64,000 nt of DNA from Escherichia coli (lineage in GTDB: Bacteria; Pseudomonadota; Gammaproteobacteria; Enterobacterales; Enterobacteriaceae). How positions within the stretch are numbered: the first letter of the stretch is position 1; the number at the start of each line of letters is the position of its first letter. Made by a program: the position numbers. The DNA lies in NCBI RefSeq assembly GCF_022846255.1, contig NZ_AP025682.1; one strand, written 5' to 3'. Positions 51,001-54,000 of the stretch are shown piece by piece.

Positions 51001-54000
51001 TGATACCCCTTATTGTGGCCGCCGGGATATGTATTGCGTTGGGGCAAGTTCTTGGCGGTACAGATGTTGGTGAAAAAACAGGAACAATCCCGTGGATGCT
51101 TAATCAGATTGGCGGCTGGGGAATGGGGCTGATTGTGCCGCTGATTAGCGCGGCAATTGCCTATTCTATTGCCGATCGTCCCGGATTTGCCCCAGGCCTG
51201 ATTGTCGGCTTTCTCTGCGGGCAAATCCATACCGGATTTATTGGCGGTATGTTGGGTGGTTTCCTGGTGGGCTACACCATTTTGCTACTTAAACGCTATA
51301 TCCGCCTGCCGCAGTCGATGCAAGGACTCATGCCAATCATGGTGTTGCCGGTATTAAGCACCATTATCGGTGGGCTGTTAATGATGACGCTGATTGGTAA
51401 ACCCATCGCCTGGTTACAAGAAGCACTGATTCATTTGCTCGAGTCGATGCAGGGTGGATCGCGCTTCCTGATGGGGGCCATACTTGGCGCGATGGCAACC
51501 TTCGATTTCGGTGGTCCGGTCAACAAAACCATGTCGCTGTTTTCCGATGGCTTGCTGGTCAGTGGCGTCTACGGACCAGAAGCCGTGAAATTTGTCGGCT
51601 CAATCATCCCTCCGTTTGGCATCACACTTTCGTTCTTACTGACACGCCATAAATATACCCGTGCGGAGCGCGAGGCGCTGAAAGCCGCGTTTCCGATGGG
51701 GATCTGCATGATCACTGAAGGAGTCATTCCGATCGCCGCGCGTGACCTGCTGCGAGTAGTGGGATCTTGTGTGGTGGCATCGGCGGTCGCGGGCGGCTTA
51801 ATCATGGTGTGGGGCGTGGAGAGTCCGGTTCCGCATGGCGGCATGTTTGTTGTGCCTCTGTTCACCCATCCTCTGCTGTTTTGCCTGGCGCTGGGTATAG
51901 GCACGGTGATTTGTGGCGTGATGCTTTCACTCTGGAAGAAACCGGTAACGGAACGCGACGAAGAGTTTGACGAACTGAGCGATCAAAAGCTGAAAGATGA
52001 AGAGATCACTTTCACCCTCGAACAACCGGAGGCCCTATGTTTGCCGATATGAAAAGTATGGTGATGAAAGCCTGGCATGAACATTACGCCTTGCTGGCGA
52101 TCAACTGTATGAATCTGGAAAGTGCTCACGCAGCTATCCGCGTGGCGGAGAAGAATCGCGCTCCGATCATTCTCAATCTCTATCAGGGGCATCTGGCGCA
52201 TTTTCCTGCACCCGTCGCGGCGGCAGTGGTTAAAACGCTCGCGGAATCTGCCTCAGTACCGGTCACTCTGGCGCTTGATCATGGCAAAAATCCGGACTGT
52301 ATTCGTCAGGCGTTTCGTGCTGGTTTCAGCGGATTAATGATTGATGCTTCTGCTTTTCCCCTGGAGGAAAACGTGCGCCAGACCAGGGCGGTGGTGGAAC
52401 TCGCCGCCAGCGCGCAGCTCTGCGTGGAAGGCGAACTGGGCCATCTGGCAGATGCGCCGCGTTACGACCAGGCCGCCAATGCAGACCTGATGACACAACC
52501 CACTGATGTGGAAACGTTTATCGCGCAGACAGGCATTGATCTACTGGCCGTCTCGGTAGGCACGGCGCACGGCATGTACGCGCCTGGTGTTGTACCTGCT
52601 ATTGATTTTCAGCGTCTGGCGGAGATTTCGCGCTGCTCGAGCGTGCCTCTGGCATTACATGGCGGTAGCGGTACGCCGTTCGATCAGCTCCAGCTCTGTA
52701 CGACGCTGGGGGTAGCAAAAATCAACGTGGGGGCGGCCATTTTTGAACGGGGGAAATCCGCGCTCCTGCATACCCTCTGTCACGATATATCCATTGAACT
52801 GGTGGACGCGCTGAAAGCTATGGAACTGGCCTTCGAAGAAGCGATTACACCGTATTTACAGGCGAGCGGCTCTATCGGCAAAGCCTGATTCATTTTCTGT
52901 CATGGCCTTTATGCCAGTGCAATAACGCACCGGCAGGGCGGACTACACGCTGAAACTGGAGATTTAACATGTTAGTTTCGATGAAAGAATTACTGCAACC
53001 TACCCGCCAGCACGGCTTTGCCATTGGCGCATTTAATGTGGCGGATAACTGTTTCCTTCGCGCAGTCGTGGATGAAGCAGAAGCGACAAATACTCCGGCG
53101 ATTATTGCCATCCATCCCAGCGAACATGATTTTGTGGGCGATGCCTTTTTCGCTCACGTTCGCGAAATTACCCAGCGTAGTCCGATCCCGTTTGTACTGC
53201 ACCTCGATCATGGTGCCTCTGTAGAGCATGTTTTGCGTGCGATTCGCTGCGGATTTACCTCAGTAATGATCGACGGTTCGCTGCTGCCATATGAAGAAAA
53301 CGTGGCGCTGACCGCAGAAGTGGTTCGCCTCGCTCACGCGGTTGGAGTATCGGTTGAGGGTGAACTGGGAACCATCGGACAAACAGGAACGTCGGTAGAA
53401 GGTGGTGTTTCACAAGTGACCTACACAGATCCGGCGCAGGCCGCCGATTTTATTGCTCGTACAGGTGCCAACACACTGGCTGTGGCGATTGGTACAGCGC
53501 ATGGCATCTATCCAAAAGGGATGCAGCCGAAGCTGCAAATGGACATTTTGCGCGACATTGCCGGACGTATTGATATTCCGCTGGTGCTACACGGTGGTTC
53601 GGCAAACCCGGACGCGGAGATTGCTGAATCAGTTACGCTCGGCGTCGGCAAAATCAATATCTCCAGCGATATGAAATACGCCTATTTCCAGAAAGTGCGT
53701 GAAATTCTCGCTAAAGAGAGCTGGTGGGACCCGAACGTCATCTATCCGGATGCGATTAACGCGGCGCGGGAAGTCATTCGCCACAAAATGAAACTGTTCG
53801 GTTCGCTCGGTAAAGCATCACTGTACTAAGCCAGAAGGGCGGGGTGACCCGCCTTTTACGCAACAAGGAACGAGATATGCACTATCTGGGGTTGGATATT
53901 GGTGGGACCAAAATCGCCGCCGTCGTCATGGATGCGCATGGCTGGGAGATTCGCCGTTACCGCTGCCCGACGCAAAAGTCGACATATCAACAATTTGTCT

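What the first reader, a model, noticed from the sequence alone, without database searches (positions are those of the whole stretch)
52037..53829. Two tandem paralogous class II aldolases, both with intact catalytic motifs
Known tagatose-bisphosphate aldolase systems pair a catalytic class II aldolase (GatY/KbaY) with a non-homologous partner (GatZ/KbaZ). Here both genes belong to the catalytic family and both keep the metal-binding histidine motifs, which is unusual and could mean two distinct cleavage specificities in one pathway.
Basis: partly seen in the sequence, partly recalled or inferred. Interest (0 to 1): 0.4.

Follow-up and report, generated by a model that had tools for sequence, protein, structure and literature searches.

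The report
Two aldolases of the frz operon
The two neighbouring aldolase genes are real, and both look catalytically intact, but they are the already described aldolase pair of the E. coli "frz" sugar-uptake operon; the operon's sugar is not named in any source I could read, and neither enzyme looks like a textbook fructose- or tagatose-bisphosphate aldolase.

Summary
Window 52037-52888 and 52969-53829 encode two full-length class II (PF01116) aldolases that are 32% identical. Both keep the Asp-His dyad, the three zinc histidines and the DHAP-site residues.

They are not new. The 7-kb island between yicI and yicH is the published frz operon of extraintestinal pathogenic E. coli. It occurs in 1606 of 5426 complete E. 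coli genomes and is annotated in RefSeq.

What the tools add:
- The order regulator-IIA-IIB-IIC-aldolase1-aldolase2 is kept in 70 of 71 loci found with an aldolase-1 probe. These span Enterobacterales, Firmicutes and Sebaldella.
- The two genes belong to separate old subfamilies. They are no closer to each other than to GatY, KbaY or YdjI, so this is not a recent duplication.
- Both are under purifying selection (dN/dS 0.05-0.11 and 0.01-0.04).
- Both lack the arginine that binds the far phosphate in FbaA, GatY and KbaY. Both also lack the mobile-loop glutamate at its usual position.
- Relatives of aldolase 2 occur as the only aldolase in other fructose-type PTS operons. Aldolase 1 was seen only next to aldolase 2.

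Most likely both are active enzymes with different specificities, possibly acting on ketose 1-phosphates. This remains biochemically untested.

The parts
48527..50080 (+). frz regulator: HTH/Mga + two PRD domains + PTS_IIB-like domain (517 aa)
   Evidence: Pfam PRD 105 bits, HTH_11, Mga, PTS_IIB. RefSeq calls it 'BglG family transcription antiterminator'. It is the first gene of the conserved six-gene module.
50107..50577 (+). PTS EIIA, fructose/mannitol type (156 aa)
   Evidence: PF00359 123.9 bits. TIGR00848 fruA IIA domain 128.7 bits, above its cut-off of 103.5.
50595..50909 (+). PTS EIIB, fructose type (104 aa)
   Evidence: PF02302. TIGR00829 100 bits, above its cut-off of 76.85.
50934..52052 (+). 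PTS EIIC, fructose type (372 aa in this strain). The usual TAA stop at 52023-52025 reads CAA here, which adds 9 residues and overlaps the ald1 start.
   Evidence: TIGR01427 311.5 bits, above its cut-off of 157.55.
52028..52032 (+). Shine-Dalgarno GGAGG of aldolase 1
   Evidence: Read directly from the sequence. It is conserved in UTI89 and other genera.
52037..52888 (+). Aldolase 1 (ald1, 283 aa): class IIb zinc aldolase, the faster-evolving subfamily. Key codons: D81-H82 at 52277-52282, H178 at 52568-52570, H208 at 52658-52660. V256 at 52802-52804 sits where FbaA, GatY and KbaY have the distal-phosphate Arg.
   Evidence: PF01116 255.7 bits. It reaches no NCBIfam curated cut-off; the nearest is TIGR00167 at 200.4 against 215.6. 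Residue mapping. dN/dS 0.05-0.11.
52889..52968 (+). 80-nt spacer between the two aldolase genes; no significant structure and no terminator
   Evidence: Fold z-score -0.86. No terminator-like site was reported there.
52969..53829 (+). Aldolase 2 (ald2, 286 aa): class IIb zinc aldolase of the NF006042/PRK08185 subfamily. Key codons: D80-H81 at 53206-53211, H178 at 53500-53502, H208 at 53590-53592, E144 at 53398-53400. N256 at 53734-53736 sits where the distal-phosphate Arg would be.
   Evidence: PF01116 301.4 bits. NF006042 522.3 bits, above its cut-off of 405, and TIGR00167 256.7, above 215.6. Residue mapping. dN/dS 0.01-0.04.
53877..54809 (+). ROK-family sugar kinase. The mechanical ORF starts at 53844; the RefSeq-equivalent ATG is at 53877.
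   Evidence: PF00480 247 bits. The best NCBIfam match is fructokinase PRK09557 at 316.9 bits, below its cut-off of 443. The start follows the UTI89 annotation.
54790..55470 (+). Cupin D-lyxose/D-mannose isomerase. The mechanical ORF starts at 54751; the RefSeq-equivalent ATG is at 54790.
   Evidence: PF07385 291 bits. NF051472 271.7 bits, below its cut-off of 350. RefSeq name.
55480..55515 (+). Terminator-like hairpin and T-run that closes the operon
   Evidence: 9-bp stem with 6 G-C pairs, followed by CCTTATTTTT.

Best explanation
These are the two aldolase genes of the frz operon. This accessory E. coli island lies between yicI and yicH. It encodes a PRD/Mga-type regulator, a fructose-family PTS (IIA, IIB, IIC), two class IIb zinc aldolases, a ROK kinase and a cupin D-lyxose/D-mannose isomerase.

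Shown here:
- Both aldolases keep the complete metal and DHAP site.
- Both are under purifying selection.
- They belong to two old, separate subfamilies.
- They have been inherited together, in the same order and behind the same PTS, across Enterobacterales, Firmicutes and Fusobacteriota.
- They differ at conserved positions that line the aldehyde half of the substrate pocket.

Inferred: both are active lyases, not a catalytic subunit plus a dead partner. They cleave the ketose phosphate(s) delivered by the Frz PTS into DHAP plus an aldehyde. They have non-redundant specificities for stereochemistry or for the size of the aldehyde half. Aldolase 2 is the core enzyme, because its clade works alone in related PTS operons. 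Aldolase 1 widens or completes the pathway.

Further inference, less certain (about 0.4): the substrates are ketose 1-monophosphates made directly by the PTS, not 1,6-bisphosphates. Both proteins lack the arginine that holds the distal phosphate, as does YdjI, which acts on a ketose 1-phosphate. In addition, the accessory genes that recur with this module process a free aldose. The free aldose released by cleavage would then be isomerised by the cupin enzyme and phosphorylated by the kinase.
For: Identity of the locus:
- The island is present at 95% identity or more in 1606 of 5426 complete E. coli genomes, with matching RefSeq names.
- PMC12928451 lists this 7.2-kb region as the 'frz operon'. 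PMC2996996 equates it with Listeria lmo2133-2137, which also has two type II aldolases.

Catalytic residues:
- N24, D82, H83, D104, E132, E134, H180, G181, H208, G209, S211, K228 and N230 (KbaY numbering) are invariant in 75 ald1 and 73 ald2 sequences from three phyla.

Selection:
- dN/dS is 0.05-0.11 for ald1 and 0.01-0.04 for ald2.

Co-inheritance:
- 70 of 71 loci recovered with ald1-specific peptide patterns carry reg-IIA-IIB-IIC-ald1-ald2 in that order.
- Pantoea, Pectobacterium and Erwinia have only these six genes.

Old divergence:
- ald1 and ald2 are about 32% identical. Each is 31-36% identical to GatY, KbaY and YdjI.

Different pockets:
- 16 positions are conserved within each family but differ between them. 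They include N47 (ald1) versus S/A47 (ald2), Y49 versus H49, and G232-A233 versus S232-S233.

Missing distal-phosphate Arg:
- At the position of FbaA R331 and GatY/KbaY R257, ald2 has Asn in 73 of 73 sequences. ald1 has Ala, Val, Pro, Ser or Asp among its listed variants, with no Arg among them. YdjI has Leu.
- Three further solved bisphosphate aldolases have Arg at this position (alignments).
- YdjI is annotated as an octuluronate-1-phosphate aldolase (PMC11194214).

Accessory genes:
- A Lyx_isomer cupin and/or a sugar kinase follow ald2 in Escherichia, Klebsiella and Kosakonia. The same is seen in Marinilactibacillus, Sebaldella, Enterococcus and Lactobacillus.
- An ald2-clade relative (54% identical) sits in IIA-aldolase-IIB-IIC-Lyx_isomer-xylulokinase. 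The kinase scores 537.9 bits on the XylB equivalog, above its cut-off of 380.25.
Against: - No enzyme assay exists for either protein in anything I could read, and the sugar is not named in any source I could read. The primary frz paper (Rouquet 2009) was not held.
- Absence of one arginine does not prove a monophosphate substrate. Another residue could bind a distal phosphate, for example the invariant H49 of ald2.
- The class IIb family is very variable at this position and in the loop.
- A host kinase can supply the second phosphate. FruK does this for tagatose 1-phosphate in evolved E. coli (PMC10101011). The operon's own ROK kinase could do the same.
- Neither protein has an acidic residue aligned with the mobile-loop Glu (FbaA E182, KbaY E142). 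ald2 has a conserved Glu four residues later, and ald1 has a conserved Asp-Ala-Pro-x-Tyr. The catalytic base is therefore assumed, not shown.
- The free aldose implied by the isomerase and kinase would require an unusual C8 or C9 ketose if it is D-lyxose or D-mannose.
Confidence: 0.55

Rival explanations
1. Both are conventional ketose-1,6-bisphosphate aldolases with different stereospecificity (for example fructose-type 3S,4R and tagatose-type 3S,4S). The PTS makes a ketose 1-phosphate. The ROK kinase, or a host kinase such as FruK or PfkB, adds the second phosphate. The two aldolases then cleave two epimeric bisphosphates to DHAP plus glyceraldehyde 3-phosphate.
For: RefSeq names them 'class II fructose-bisphosphate aldolase' and 'ketose-bisphosphate aldolase'. 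ald2 passes the TIGR00167 ketose-bisphosphate aldolase subfamily cut-off. The closest solved structures are FBP and TBP aldolases, E = 1e-40 to 1e-57. Precedent exists: Fru-PTS plus FruK plus KbaY gives tagatose catabolism (PMC10101011). A ROK kinase follows ald2 in many loci.
Against: Both families lack the distal-phosphate Arg that is present in FbaA, GatY, KbaY and three other solved bisphosphate aldolases. Neither reaches any FBP- or TBP-aldolase equivalog cut-off. For example, TIGR01858 gives 181.5 and 227.1 bits against 443.55, and TIGR01859 gives 213.5 and 267.1 against 343.05. The minimal six-gene module has no kinase. This reading gives no role to a cupin isomerase that acts on free aldoses.
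Confidence: 0.28
2. The two proteins form an obligate hetero-oligomer. Aldolase 2 is the working enzyme. The faster-evolving aldolase 1 mainly stabilises or tunes it, as GatZ/KbaZ were long thought to do for GatY/KbaY.
For: Strict adjacency and fixed order in 70 of 71 loci. ald1 was never seen without ald2, whereas ald2-clade enzymes occur alone. ald1 accumulates non-synonymous change 2-2.5 times faster in most comparisons. From general knowledge, class II aldolases are dimers or tetramers whose active sites use a residue from the neighbouring subunit.
Against: A purely structural partner would not be expected to keep every zinc ligand, the Asp, Asn230, Lys228 and the phosphate-binding Gly and Ser invariant across three phyla at only 35-43% overall identity. 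dN/dS of 0.05-0.11 indicates strong constraint. The spacer is 80 nt or more in Enterobacterales, with no translational coupling. No interaction evidence is available.
Confidence: 0.1
3. Aldolase 1 is an epimerase. It breaks and re-forms the C3-C4 bond without releasing products, converting the PTS product into the epimer that aldolase 2 can cleave.
For: [quoted passage not shown] Asp139-Ala-Pro-x-Tyr143, instead of the usual Gly-x-Glu-Asp. ald2-type enzymes suffice alone in related operons, so ald1 could be an adaptor step.
Against: GatZ has altered metal ligands, whereas ald1 keeps the full aldolase set. Nothing in the sequence distinguishes an epimerase from a lyase here. This is analogy only.
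Confidence: 0.1
4. The pair is a redundant duplicate, with one copy decaying.
For: Some E. coli lineages carry an N-terminally truncated ald1 of 171 aa.
Against: In those lineages other frz genes are broken too (EIIA, EIIB, isomerase), so the whole operon is decaying, not ald1 specifically. The two genes are only 32% identical and anciently separated. Both are under purifying selection, and the pair is conserved across phyla.
Confidence: 0.02

Closest known systems
frz operon of extraintestinal pathogenic E. coli (Rouquet et al. 2009, J Bacteriol 191:4427), and its Listeria monocytogenes homologue lmo2133-lmo2138
   Same: It is the same locus. It lies between yicI and yicH, with the same eight genes and 99% or higher DNA identity to UTI89 and many ExPEC genomes. 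PMC12928451 lists the region as the frz operon. PMC2996996 links lmo2133-2137 (two type II aldolases plus a fructose-like PTS) to it.
   Different: Nothing structural differs. This strain has a read-through of the EIIC stop codon. As far as I could read, the published work is genetic and phenotypic (fitness, adhesion, invasion). No source I could read names the sugar or explains the two aldolases. That the operon was described as holding 'two type II ketose-1,6-bisphosphate aldolases' is my recollection of the 2009 abstract; the paper itself was not available.
GatY/KbaY tagatose-1,6-bisphosphate aldolases with GatZ/KbaZ
   Same: Class IIb zinc aldolases of about 285 aa, encoded in PTS-linked sugar operons. 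They share the zinc histidines, Asp82, Asn230 and Lys228. In both systems two superfamily members are encoded together.
   Different: Identity is only 32-35%. Scores are far below the GatY, KbaY and TIGR01858 cut-offs. Arg257 and the aligned Glu142 are absent. The partner here is a second PF01116 protein with a full active site, not a PF08013 GatZ-type protein.
YdjI (E. coli K-12), L-glycero-L-galacto-octuluronate-1-phosphate aldolase
   Same: It is a class IIb PF01116 enzyme with the same metal and DHAP site. It has no Arg at the distal-phosphate position (Leu250). It acts on a ketose 1-monophosphate and releases an unphosphorylated aldose-type product.
   Different: Identity is 31-36%. Its operon uses a dedicated kinase (YdjH) and a transporter rather than a PTS. 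Its loop sequence differs.
NCBIfam NF006042 (PRK08185) subfamily, and single-aldolase fructose-type PTS operons
   Same: ald2 is a member, at 522 bits against a cut-off of 405. Relatives 50-54% identical share the Gly-Thr-Ile-Gly...Glu-Gly-Gly loop, His49 and the lack of Arg. They also sit in fructose-type PTS operons.
   Different: Those relatives are the only aldolase seen in their operon (one contig is cut at its upstream end). The NCBIfam model is still titled 'hypothetical protein', so no function has been assigned.

Membership tests
Class II (metal-dependent) fructose/ketose-bisphosphate aldolase family, Pfam PF01116 | Full-length match to PF01116 above the gathering score | tested here: met
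   ald1 scores 255.7 bits over profile positions 2-277 of 277. ald2 scores 301.4 bits over positions 1-277 of 277. The gathering score is 25.5.
Class II (metal-dependent) fructose/ketose-bisphosphate aldolase family, Pfam PF01116 | Three zinc-binding histidines (FbaA H110/H226/H264 = KbaY H83/H180/H208) and the preceding catalytic Asp | tested here: met
   ald1 has D81, H82, H178 and H208. ald2 has D80, H81, H178 and H208. These are invariant in 75 ald1 and 73 ald2 sequences.
Class II (metal-dependent) fructose/ketose-bisphosphate aldolase family, Pfam PF01116 | DHAP/enediolate site: Gly181, Gly209, Ser211, Lys228, Asn230 and Thr233 (KbaY numbering) | tested here: met
   All are kept except Thr233, which is Ala in ald1 and Ser in ald2.
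Class II (metal-dependent) fructose/ketose-bisphosphate aldolase family, Pfam PF01116 | Mobile-loop glutamate that deprotonates DHAP (FbaA Glu182 = KbaY Glu142; role cited in PMC11194214) | tested here: inconclusive
   At the aligned residue ald1 has Pro141 (65 of 75 sequences) and ald2 has Gly140 (73 of 73). ald2 has a conserved Glu144 (72 of 73). ald1 has a conserved Asp139 (66 of 75) and Tyr143 (68 of 75) in the same loop. Loop alignment is uncertain.
Ketose-1,6-BISphosphate aldolases (FbaA, GatY, KbaY type) | Arginine from the C-terminal 'Asp-Pro-Arg' motif that binds the distal (C6) phosphate (FbaA Arg331 = GatY/KbaY Arg257). Its role is from established knowledge (Qamar et al. 1996; Hall et al. 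1999) and was not re-read here. | tested here: not met
   ald1 has Val256; across the family this position is Ala, Val, Pro, Ser or Asp among the listed variants, with no Arg. ald2 has Asn256 in 73 of 73 sequences. Arg is present in FbaA, GatY, KbaY, 1rv8, 2fjk and 7ncc.
Tagatose-bisphosphate aldolase equivalogs (NCBIfam TIGR01858; NF009374 GatY; NF009375 KbaY) | Score above the curated cut-off | tested here: not met
   TIGR01858: ald1 181.5 and ald2 227.1 bits against 443.55. NF009375: 150.2 and 182.4 against 542. NF009374: 187.1 and 245.8 against 383.
Class II fructose-1,6-bisphosphate aldolase equivalogs (TIGR01859, NF009497) | Score above the curated cut-off | tested here: not met
   TIGR01859: 213.5 and 267.1 bits against 343.05. 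NF009497: 203.2 and 276.3 against 423.
NCBIfam NF006042 (PRK08185) subfamily | Score above the curated cut-off of 405 bits | tested here: met
   ald2 scores 522.3 bits and is a member. ald1 scores 174.1 bits and is not.
frz operon (ExPEC accessory PTS operon) | Location between yicI and yicH. Gene set: regulator, EIIA, EIIB, EIIC (fructose type), two class II aldolases, ROK kinase, cupin protein. | tested here: met
   ORF map, domain assignments and the UTI89 RefSeq annotation of the same region at 99.5% identity. The literature names the region.
GatYZ/KbaYZ-type pair (aldolase plus GatZ/KbaZ partner) | A PF08013 GatZ/KbaZ-like protein encoded with the aldolase | tested here: not met
   None of the eight island proteins has that domain. 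The second protein is a PF01116 aldolase. A profile comparison of the ald1 family with GatZ gave only 8% probability.

The most novel reading that the evidence does not exclude
The Frz aldolases are not bisphosphate aldolases. Under this reading the fructose-type PTS delivers a ketose 1-phosphate. One or both enzymes split it into DHAP plus a free aldose with the D-lyxose/D-mannose configuration, which would make the sugar an unusual higher-carbon ketose such as an octulose or nonulose. The aldose is then recycled by the cupin isomerase and a fructokinase or xylulokinase. The two aldolases would cover different chain lengths or stereoisomers. This would define a PTS-linked 'ketose-1-phosphate aldolase' pathway shared by ExPEC, plant-associated Enterobacterales, Listeria and enterococci.
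Probability: 0.2. Interest if true: 0.6.

Novelty: already known. Interest (0 to 1): 0.3.

Why it matters
The frz operon has been linked to fitness in serum and gut, and to adhesion and invasion, in pathogenic E. coli. It also has homologues in Listeria and enterococci. No source I could read names its sugar. If the two aldolases act on ketose 1-phosphates and release a free aldose, that narrows the search for the Frz substrate. It would also show that the database name 'fructose/ketose-bisphosphate aldolase' is misleading for a family spread over three phyla. As a genome-scan finding, however, the tandem pair is an annotated and previously described feature, so it is not a discovery.

Tried and rejected
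- I tried to read the primary frz paper by DOI and by PMC id, the YdjI structure paper, and the Jacques 2018 mechanism paper. None is held. What I say about their content comes from citing papers or from memory, and is marked as such.
- A literature search for Arg331 found nothing in the held library.
- A search for ketose-1-phosphate aldolase pathways returned only an unrelated E. coli Nissle D-tagatose cluster (ABC transporter type).
- I checked the 80-nt spacer between the genes for a structured RNA or terminator. The fold z-score is -0.86 and no terminator site is reported, so there is nothing there.
- I tested GatZ homology by profile comparison. The probability is 8% and E = 0.004. The Asp-His motif does align with what appears to be GatZ Asp87-His88. 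This is too weak to count either way.
- I rejected 'recent tandem duplication': ald1 and ald2 are no closer to each other than to GatY, KbaY or YdjI.
- I rejected 'one copy is a dead partner': all core residues are invariant and dN/dS is low in both.
- One locus from the genome scan (L077, Erysipelotrichaceae) turned out to hold a single, different aldolase and was excluded from the family counts.
- I considered an AlphaFold run on a fused ald1-linker-ald2 chain but did not run it. The tool returns only confidence scores. Any two class II aldolases would probably dock in the family's usual dimer mode, so the run could not separate hetero- from homo-oligomers.
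Full report
**1. What is at the coordinates**

The window is E. coli chromosome. Around the finding the gene order is yicJ, yicI, then an eight-gene block on the + strand, then yicH, xanP, gltS and recG (RefSeq annotation of the same region in UTI89). The eight genes are as follows.

| Gene | Coordinates | Basis |
|---|---|---|
| PRD/Mga-type regulator | 48527-50080 | |
| PTS EIIA | 50107-50577 | |
| PTS EIIB | 50595-50909 | |
| PTS EIIC, fructose family | 50934-52052 | |
| Aldolase 1 (ald1), 283 aa | 52037-52888 | |
| Aldolase 2 (ald2), 286 aa | 52969-53829 | |
| ROK kinase | 53877-54809 | |
| Cupin D-lyxose/D-mannose isomerase | 54790-55470 | |

A terminator-like hairpin at 55480-55505 closes the block. 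Both aldolases match Pfam PF01116 end to end, at 255.7 and 301.4 bits against a gathering score of 25.5. They are 32% identical, E = 9e-44.

**2. It is a known locus**

- The 7.1-kb block is found at 95% identity or more in 1606 of 5426 complete E. coli genomes. It is annotated by RefSeq as 'class II fructose-bisphosphate aldolase' followed by 'ketose-bisphosphate aldolase'.
- A 2026 comparative paper lists this region as the 'frz operon'. It cites Rouquet et al. 2009, who linked it to fitness, adhesion and invasion in ExPEC (PMC12928451).
- A Listeria pan-genome paper equates lmo2133-lmo2137 with the ExPEC operon. That cluster has two 'fructose-1,6-bisphosphate aldolase type II' genes plus a fructose-like PTS (PMC2996996).
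- The primary paper was not available to me. From memory, its abstract describes 'two type II ketose-1,6-bisphosphate aldolases'. I found no biochemical study of either enzyme.

**3.

I aligned both proteins with GatY, KbaY, YdjI and FbaA taken from the K-12 record and mapped the FbaA functional residues.

Both window proteins keep:
- Asn35;
- the Asp109-His110 dyad;
- Asp144, Glu172 and Glu174;
- His226-Gly227;
- His264-Gly265 and Ser267;
- Lys284 and Asn286.

I extended this to 75 ald1 and 73 ald2 sequences from three phyla. All of these positions are invariant in both families.

Two features of true bisphosphate aldolases are missing from both proteins.
- **The distal-phosphate arginine.** This is the arginine of the C-terminal Asp-Pro-Arg motif (FbaA Arg331 = GatY/KbaY Arg257). 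It binds the distal phosphate; that role is established knowledge and was not re-read here. It is Val256 in ald1, and no Arg appears among the listed ald1 variants. It is Asn256 in ald2, in 73 of 73 sequences. Arg is present in FbaA, GatY and KbaY, and in the solved enzymes 1rv8, 2fjk and 7ncc. YdjI also lacks it (Leu250). RefSeq annotates YdjI as an octuluronate-1-phosphate aldolase, which means a monophosphate substrate.
- **The mobile-loop glutamate.** FbaA Glu182 (KbaY Glu142) deprotonates DHAP (PMC11194214). It aligns with Pro141 in ald1 and Gly140 in ald2. Each family has its own conserved loop instead. ald2 has Gly-Thr-Ile-Gly-x-Thr-Gly-x-x-x-Glu144-Gly-Gly. ald1 has Gly-His136-x-Ala-Asp139-Ala-Pro-x-Tyr143. 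A catalytic base is likely still present, but this is inferred.

Neither protein reaches any curated FBP- or TBP-aldolase equivalog cut-off. ald2 belongs to NF006042/PRK08185, a subfamily still titled 'hypothetical protein'.

**4. The pair is an old, co-inherited unit, not a duplication**

- ald1 orthologues occur across Enterobacterales at 55-86% identity.
- In Pantoea, Pectobacterium and Erwinia the module is just six genes: regulator, IIA, IIB, IIC, ald1 and ald2. There is no kinase or isomerase.
- A scan of one genome per species with ald1-specific peptides returned 71 loci. In 70 of them, tblastn with the eight window proteins finds the same six genes in the same order. These include Marinilactibacillus, four Enterococcus, Pediococcus, Lactobacillus, Streptococcus and Sebaldella. 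The exception, L077, is a different single aldolase.
- ald2 is always the better conserved protein. It is 77-81% identical to the E. coli protein in Pantoea, Pectobacterium, Erwinia and their relatives, against 58-61% for ald1. In the Firmicutes and Sebaldella it is 52-69% identical, against 35-43%.
- dN/dS is 0.05-0.11 for ald1 and 0.01-0.04 for ald2. Both are constrained, and ald1 changes about twice as fast.
- ald1 and ald2 are about 32% identical. That is no closer than either is to GatY, KbaY or YdjI, at 31-36%.
- Sixteen positions are conserved within each family but differ between them. Differences include the residues aligned with FbaA Gln59 and Ser61 (ald1 Asn47/Tyr49; ald2 Ser or Ala47/His49). 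They also include those aligned with FbaA Asp288 and Thr289 (Gly232-Ala233 against Ser232-Ser233). From established knowledge, these positions contact the aldehyde half of the substrate. This is the best available support for different specificities.

**5. Which one is the core enzyme**

I searched ald2 against 1.84 billion cluster representatives and inspected the contexts of the nearest non-orthologous relatives. ald2-clade enzymes are 50-54% identical, have the same loop and lack the Arg. They occur as the only aldolase seen in other fructose-type PTS operons (the L088 contig is cut at its upstream end):
- L088: IIA-aldolase-IIB-IIC-Lyx_isomer-xylulokinase. The kinase scores 537.9 bits on the XylB equivalog, above its cut-off of 380.25.
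- L089: regulator-IIA-IIB-IIC-aldolase-DUF1537-type kinase.
- L008 upstream cluster: regulator-aldolase-IIABC.

So ald2-type enzymes are self-sufficient, and ald1 is an add-on that I saw only next to ald2.

**6. Mechanism: what is shown and what is inferred**

Shown:
- Both proteins have a complete class II metal and DHAP site.
- Both are constrained by selection.
- They are co-inherited with a fructose-type PTS.
- Their pockets differ.
- Neither has the distal-phosphate Arg.

Inferred:
- The PTS EIIC is closest to FruA-type domains. Like FruA, it probably produces a ketose 1-phosphate.
- The aldolases then release DHAP plus an aldehyde.
- The accessory genes that recur with the module act on free sugars. 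They are a D-lyxose/D-mannose isomerase, together with a fructokinase-like ROK kinase, a xylulokinase, or mannose-6-phosphate isomerase. The operon has no hydrolase. The simplest source of a free cytoplasmic aldose is therefore cleavage of a ketose 1-monophosphate.
- That fits the missing arginine and the YdjI precedent.

I rate 'both catalytic and non-redundant' at about 0.6-0.8. I rate the monophosphate sub-claim at about 0.4.

Arguments against the monophosphate sub-claim:
- A host or ROK kinase could make a bisphosphate. FruK does this for tagatose 1-phosphate (PMC10101011).
- The class IIb family is very variable at the arginine position.
- A D-lyxose or D-mannose product would imply an unusual C8 or C9 ketose.

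**7. Rivals**

| Rival | Confidence | Main points |
|---|---|---|
| Conventional bisphosphate aldolases of differing stereospecificity | 0.28 | Supported by annotation and by the nearest solved structures. Weakened by the missing Arg and the failed equivalog thresholds. |
| Obligate hetero-oligomer with ald1 as accessory subunit | 0.10 | Fits the strict adjacency and the faster evolution of ald1. Fits poorly with ald1's invariant catalytic residues. |
| ald1 as a retro-aldol/aldol epimerase | 0.10 | By analogy with GatZ/KbaZ (PMC11907403). No sequence feature discriminates it from a lyase. |
| Redundant or decaying duplicate | 0.02 | Contradicted. Where ald1 is truncated in some E. coli, other frz genes are broken too. 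|

**8.

GatZ/KbaZ are described in recent work as evolutionary relatives of class II aldolases with epimerase activity, not as unrelated partners. My own profile test was inconclusive. The frz pair differs from GatYZ because both members are PF01116 proteins with full active sites.

**9. Verdict**

- The feature is real and correctly described.
- It is already annotated and published as part of the frz operon.
- Its biochemical role is still open.
- The useful additions here are its conservation as a unit across phyla, the evidence that both copies are functional but are not canonical FBP or TBP aldolases, and a testable substrate hypothesis.
- Interest is modest.

Noticed in passing
window 52023-52052: In this strain the EIIC stop codon reads CAA. 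It is TAA in UTI89, another Escherichia, Citrobacter, Klebsiella, Kosakonia, Buttiauxella and Mangrovibacter. The EIIC therefore reads through for 9 extra residues (QPEALCLPI) to a TGA at 52050-52052 and overlaps the ald1 start by 16 nt.
   Followed up: yes
loci L086 and L087 (E. coli assemblies): Some E. coli lineages carry a decaying frz operon. ald1 is N-terminally truncated to 171 aa in both loci. EIIA and the Lyx isomerase are split in L086, and EIIB is shortened in L087. Protein clusters of such 171-181 aa ald1 fragments hold a few hundred member sequences.
   Followed up: partly
locus L088 (metagenome contig, 5 kb): A relative of ald2 (54% identical) is the only aldolase on this contig, which is cut at its upstream end. 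The order is IIA-aldolase-IIB-IIC-Lyx_isomerase-xylulokinase. This suggests a PTS-linked pathway in which a free pentose (D-lyxose to D-xylulose) is salvaged.
   Followed up: partly
locus L008/L009 1-3470 and 9753-12300 (low-GC metagenome contig): The same contig holds a second fructose-type PTS operon with a single ald2-clade aldolase, upstream of the frz-like operon. The frz-like operon there carries a Lyx isomerase, a ScrK-like fructokinase and a class I mannose-6-phosphate isomerase.
   Followed up: partly
window 48001-50000 versus 52001-56000: G+C is uneven inside the island. It is 0.417 over the regulator gene and 0.52-0.54 over the aldolase, kinase and isomerase genes. This hints at a mosaic origin.
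   Followed up: no
window 40001-44300, including the ORF at 43045-44211 (- strand, 388 aa): A low-G+C stretch (0.43-0.46) lies just upstream of yicJ and holds a 388-aa ORF on the minus strand. It is probably another accessory insertion and was not examined.
   Followed up: no
window 53844-53876 and 54751-54789: The mechanical ORFs for the ROK kinase and the isomerase start at GTG codons upstream of the ATG starts used by RefSeq in UTI89 (equivalent to 53877 and 54790). With the RefSeq starts the two genes overlap by 20 nt.
   Followed up: partly
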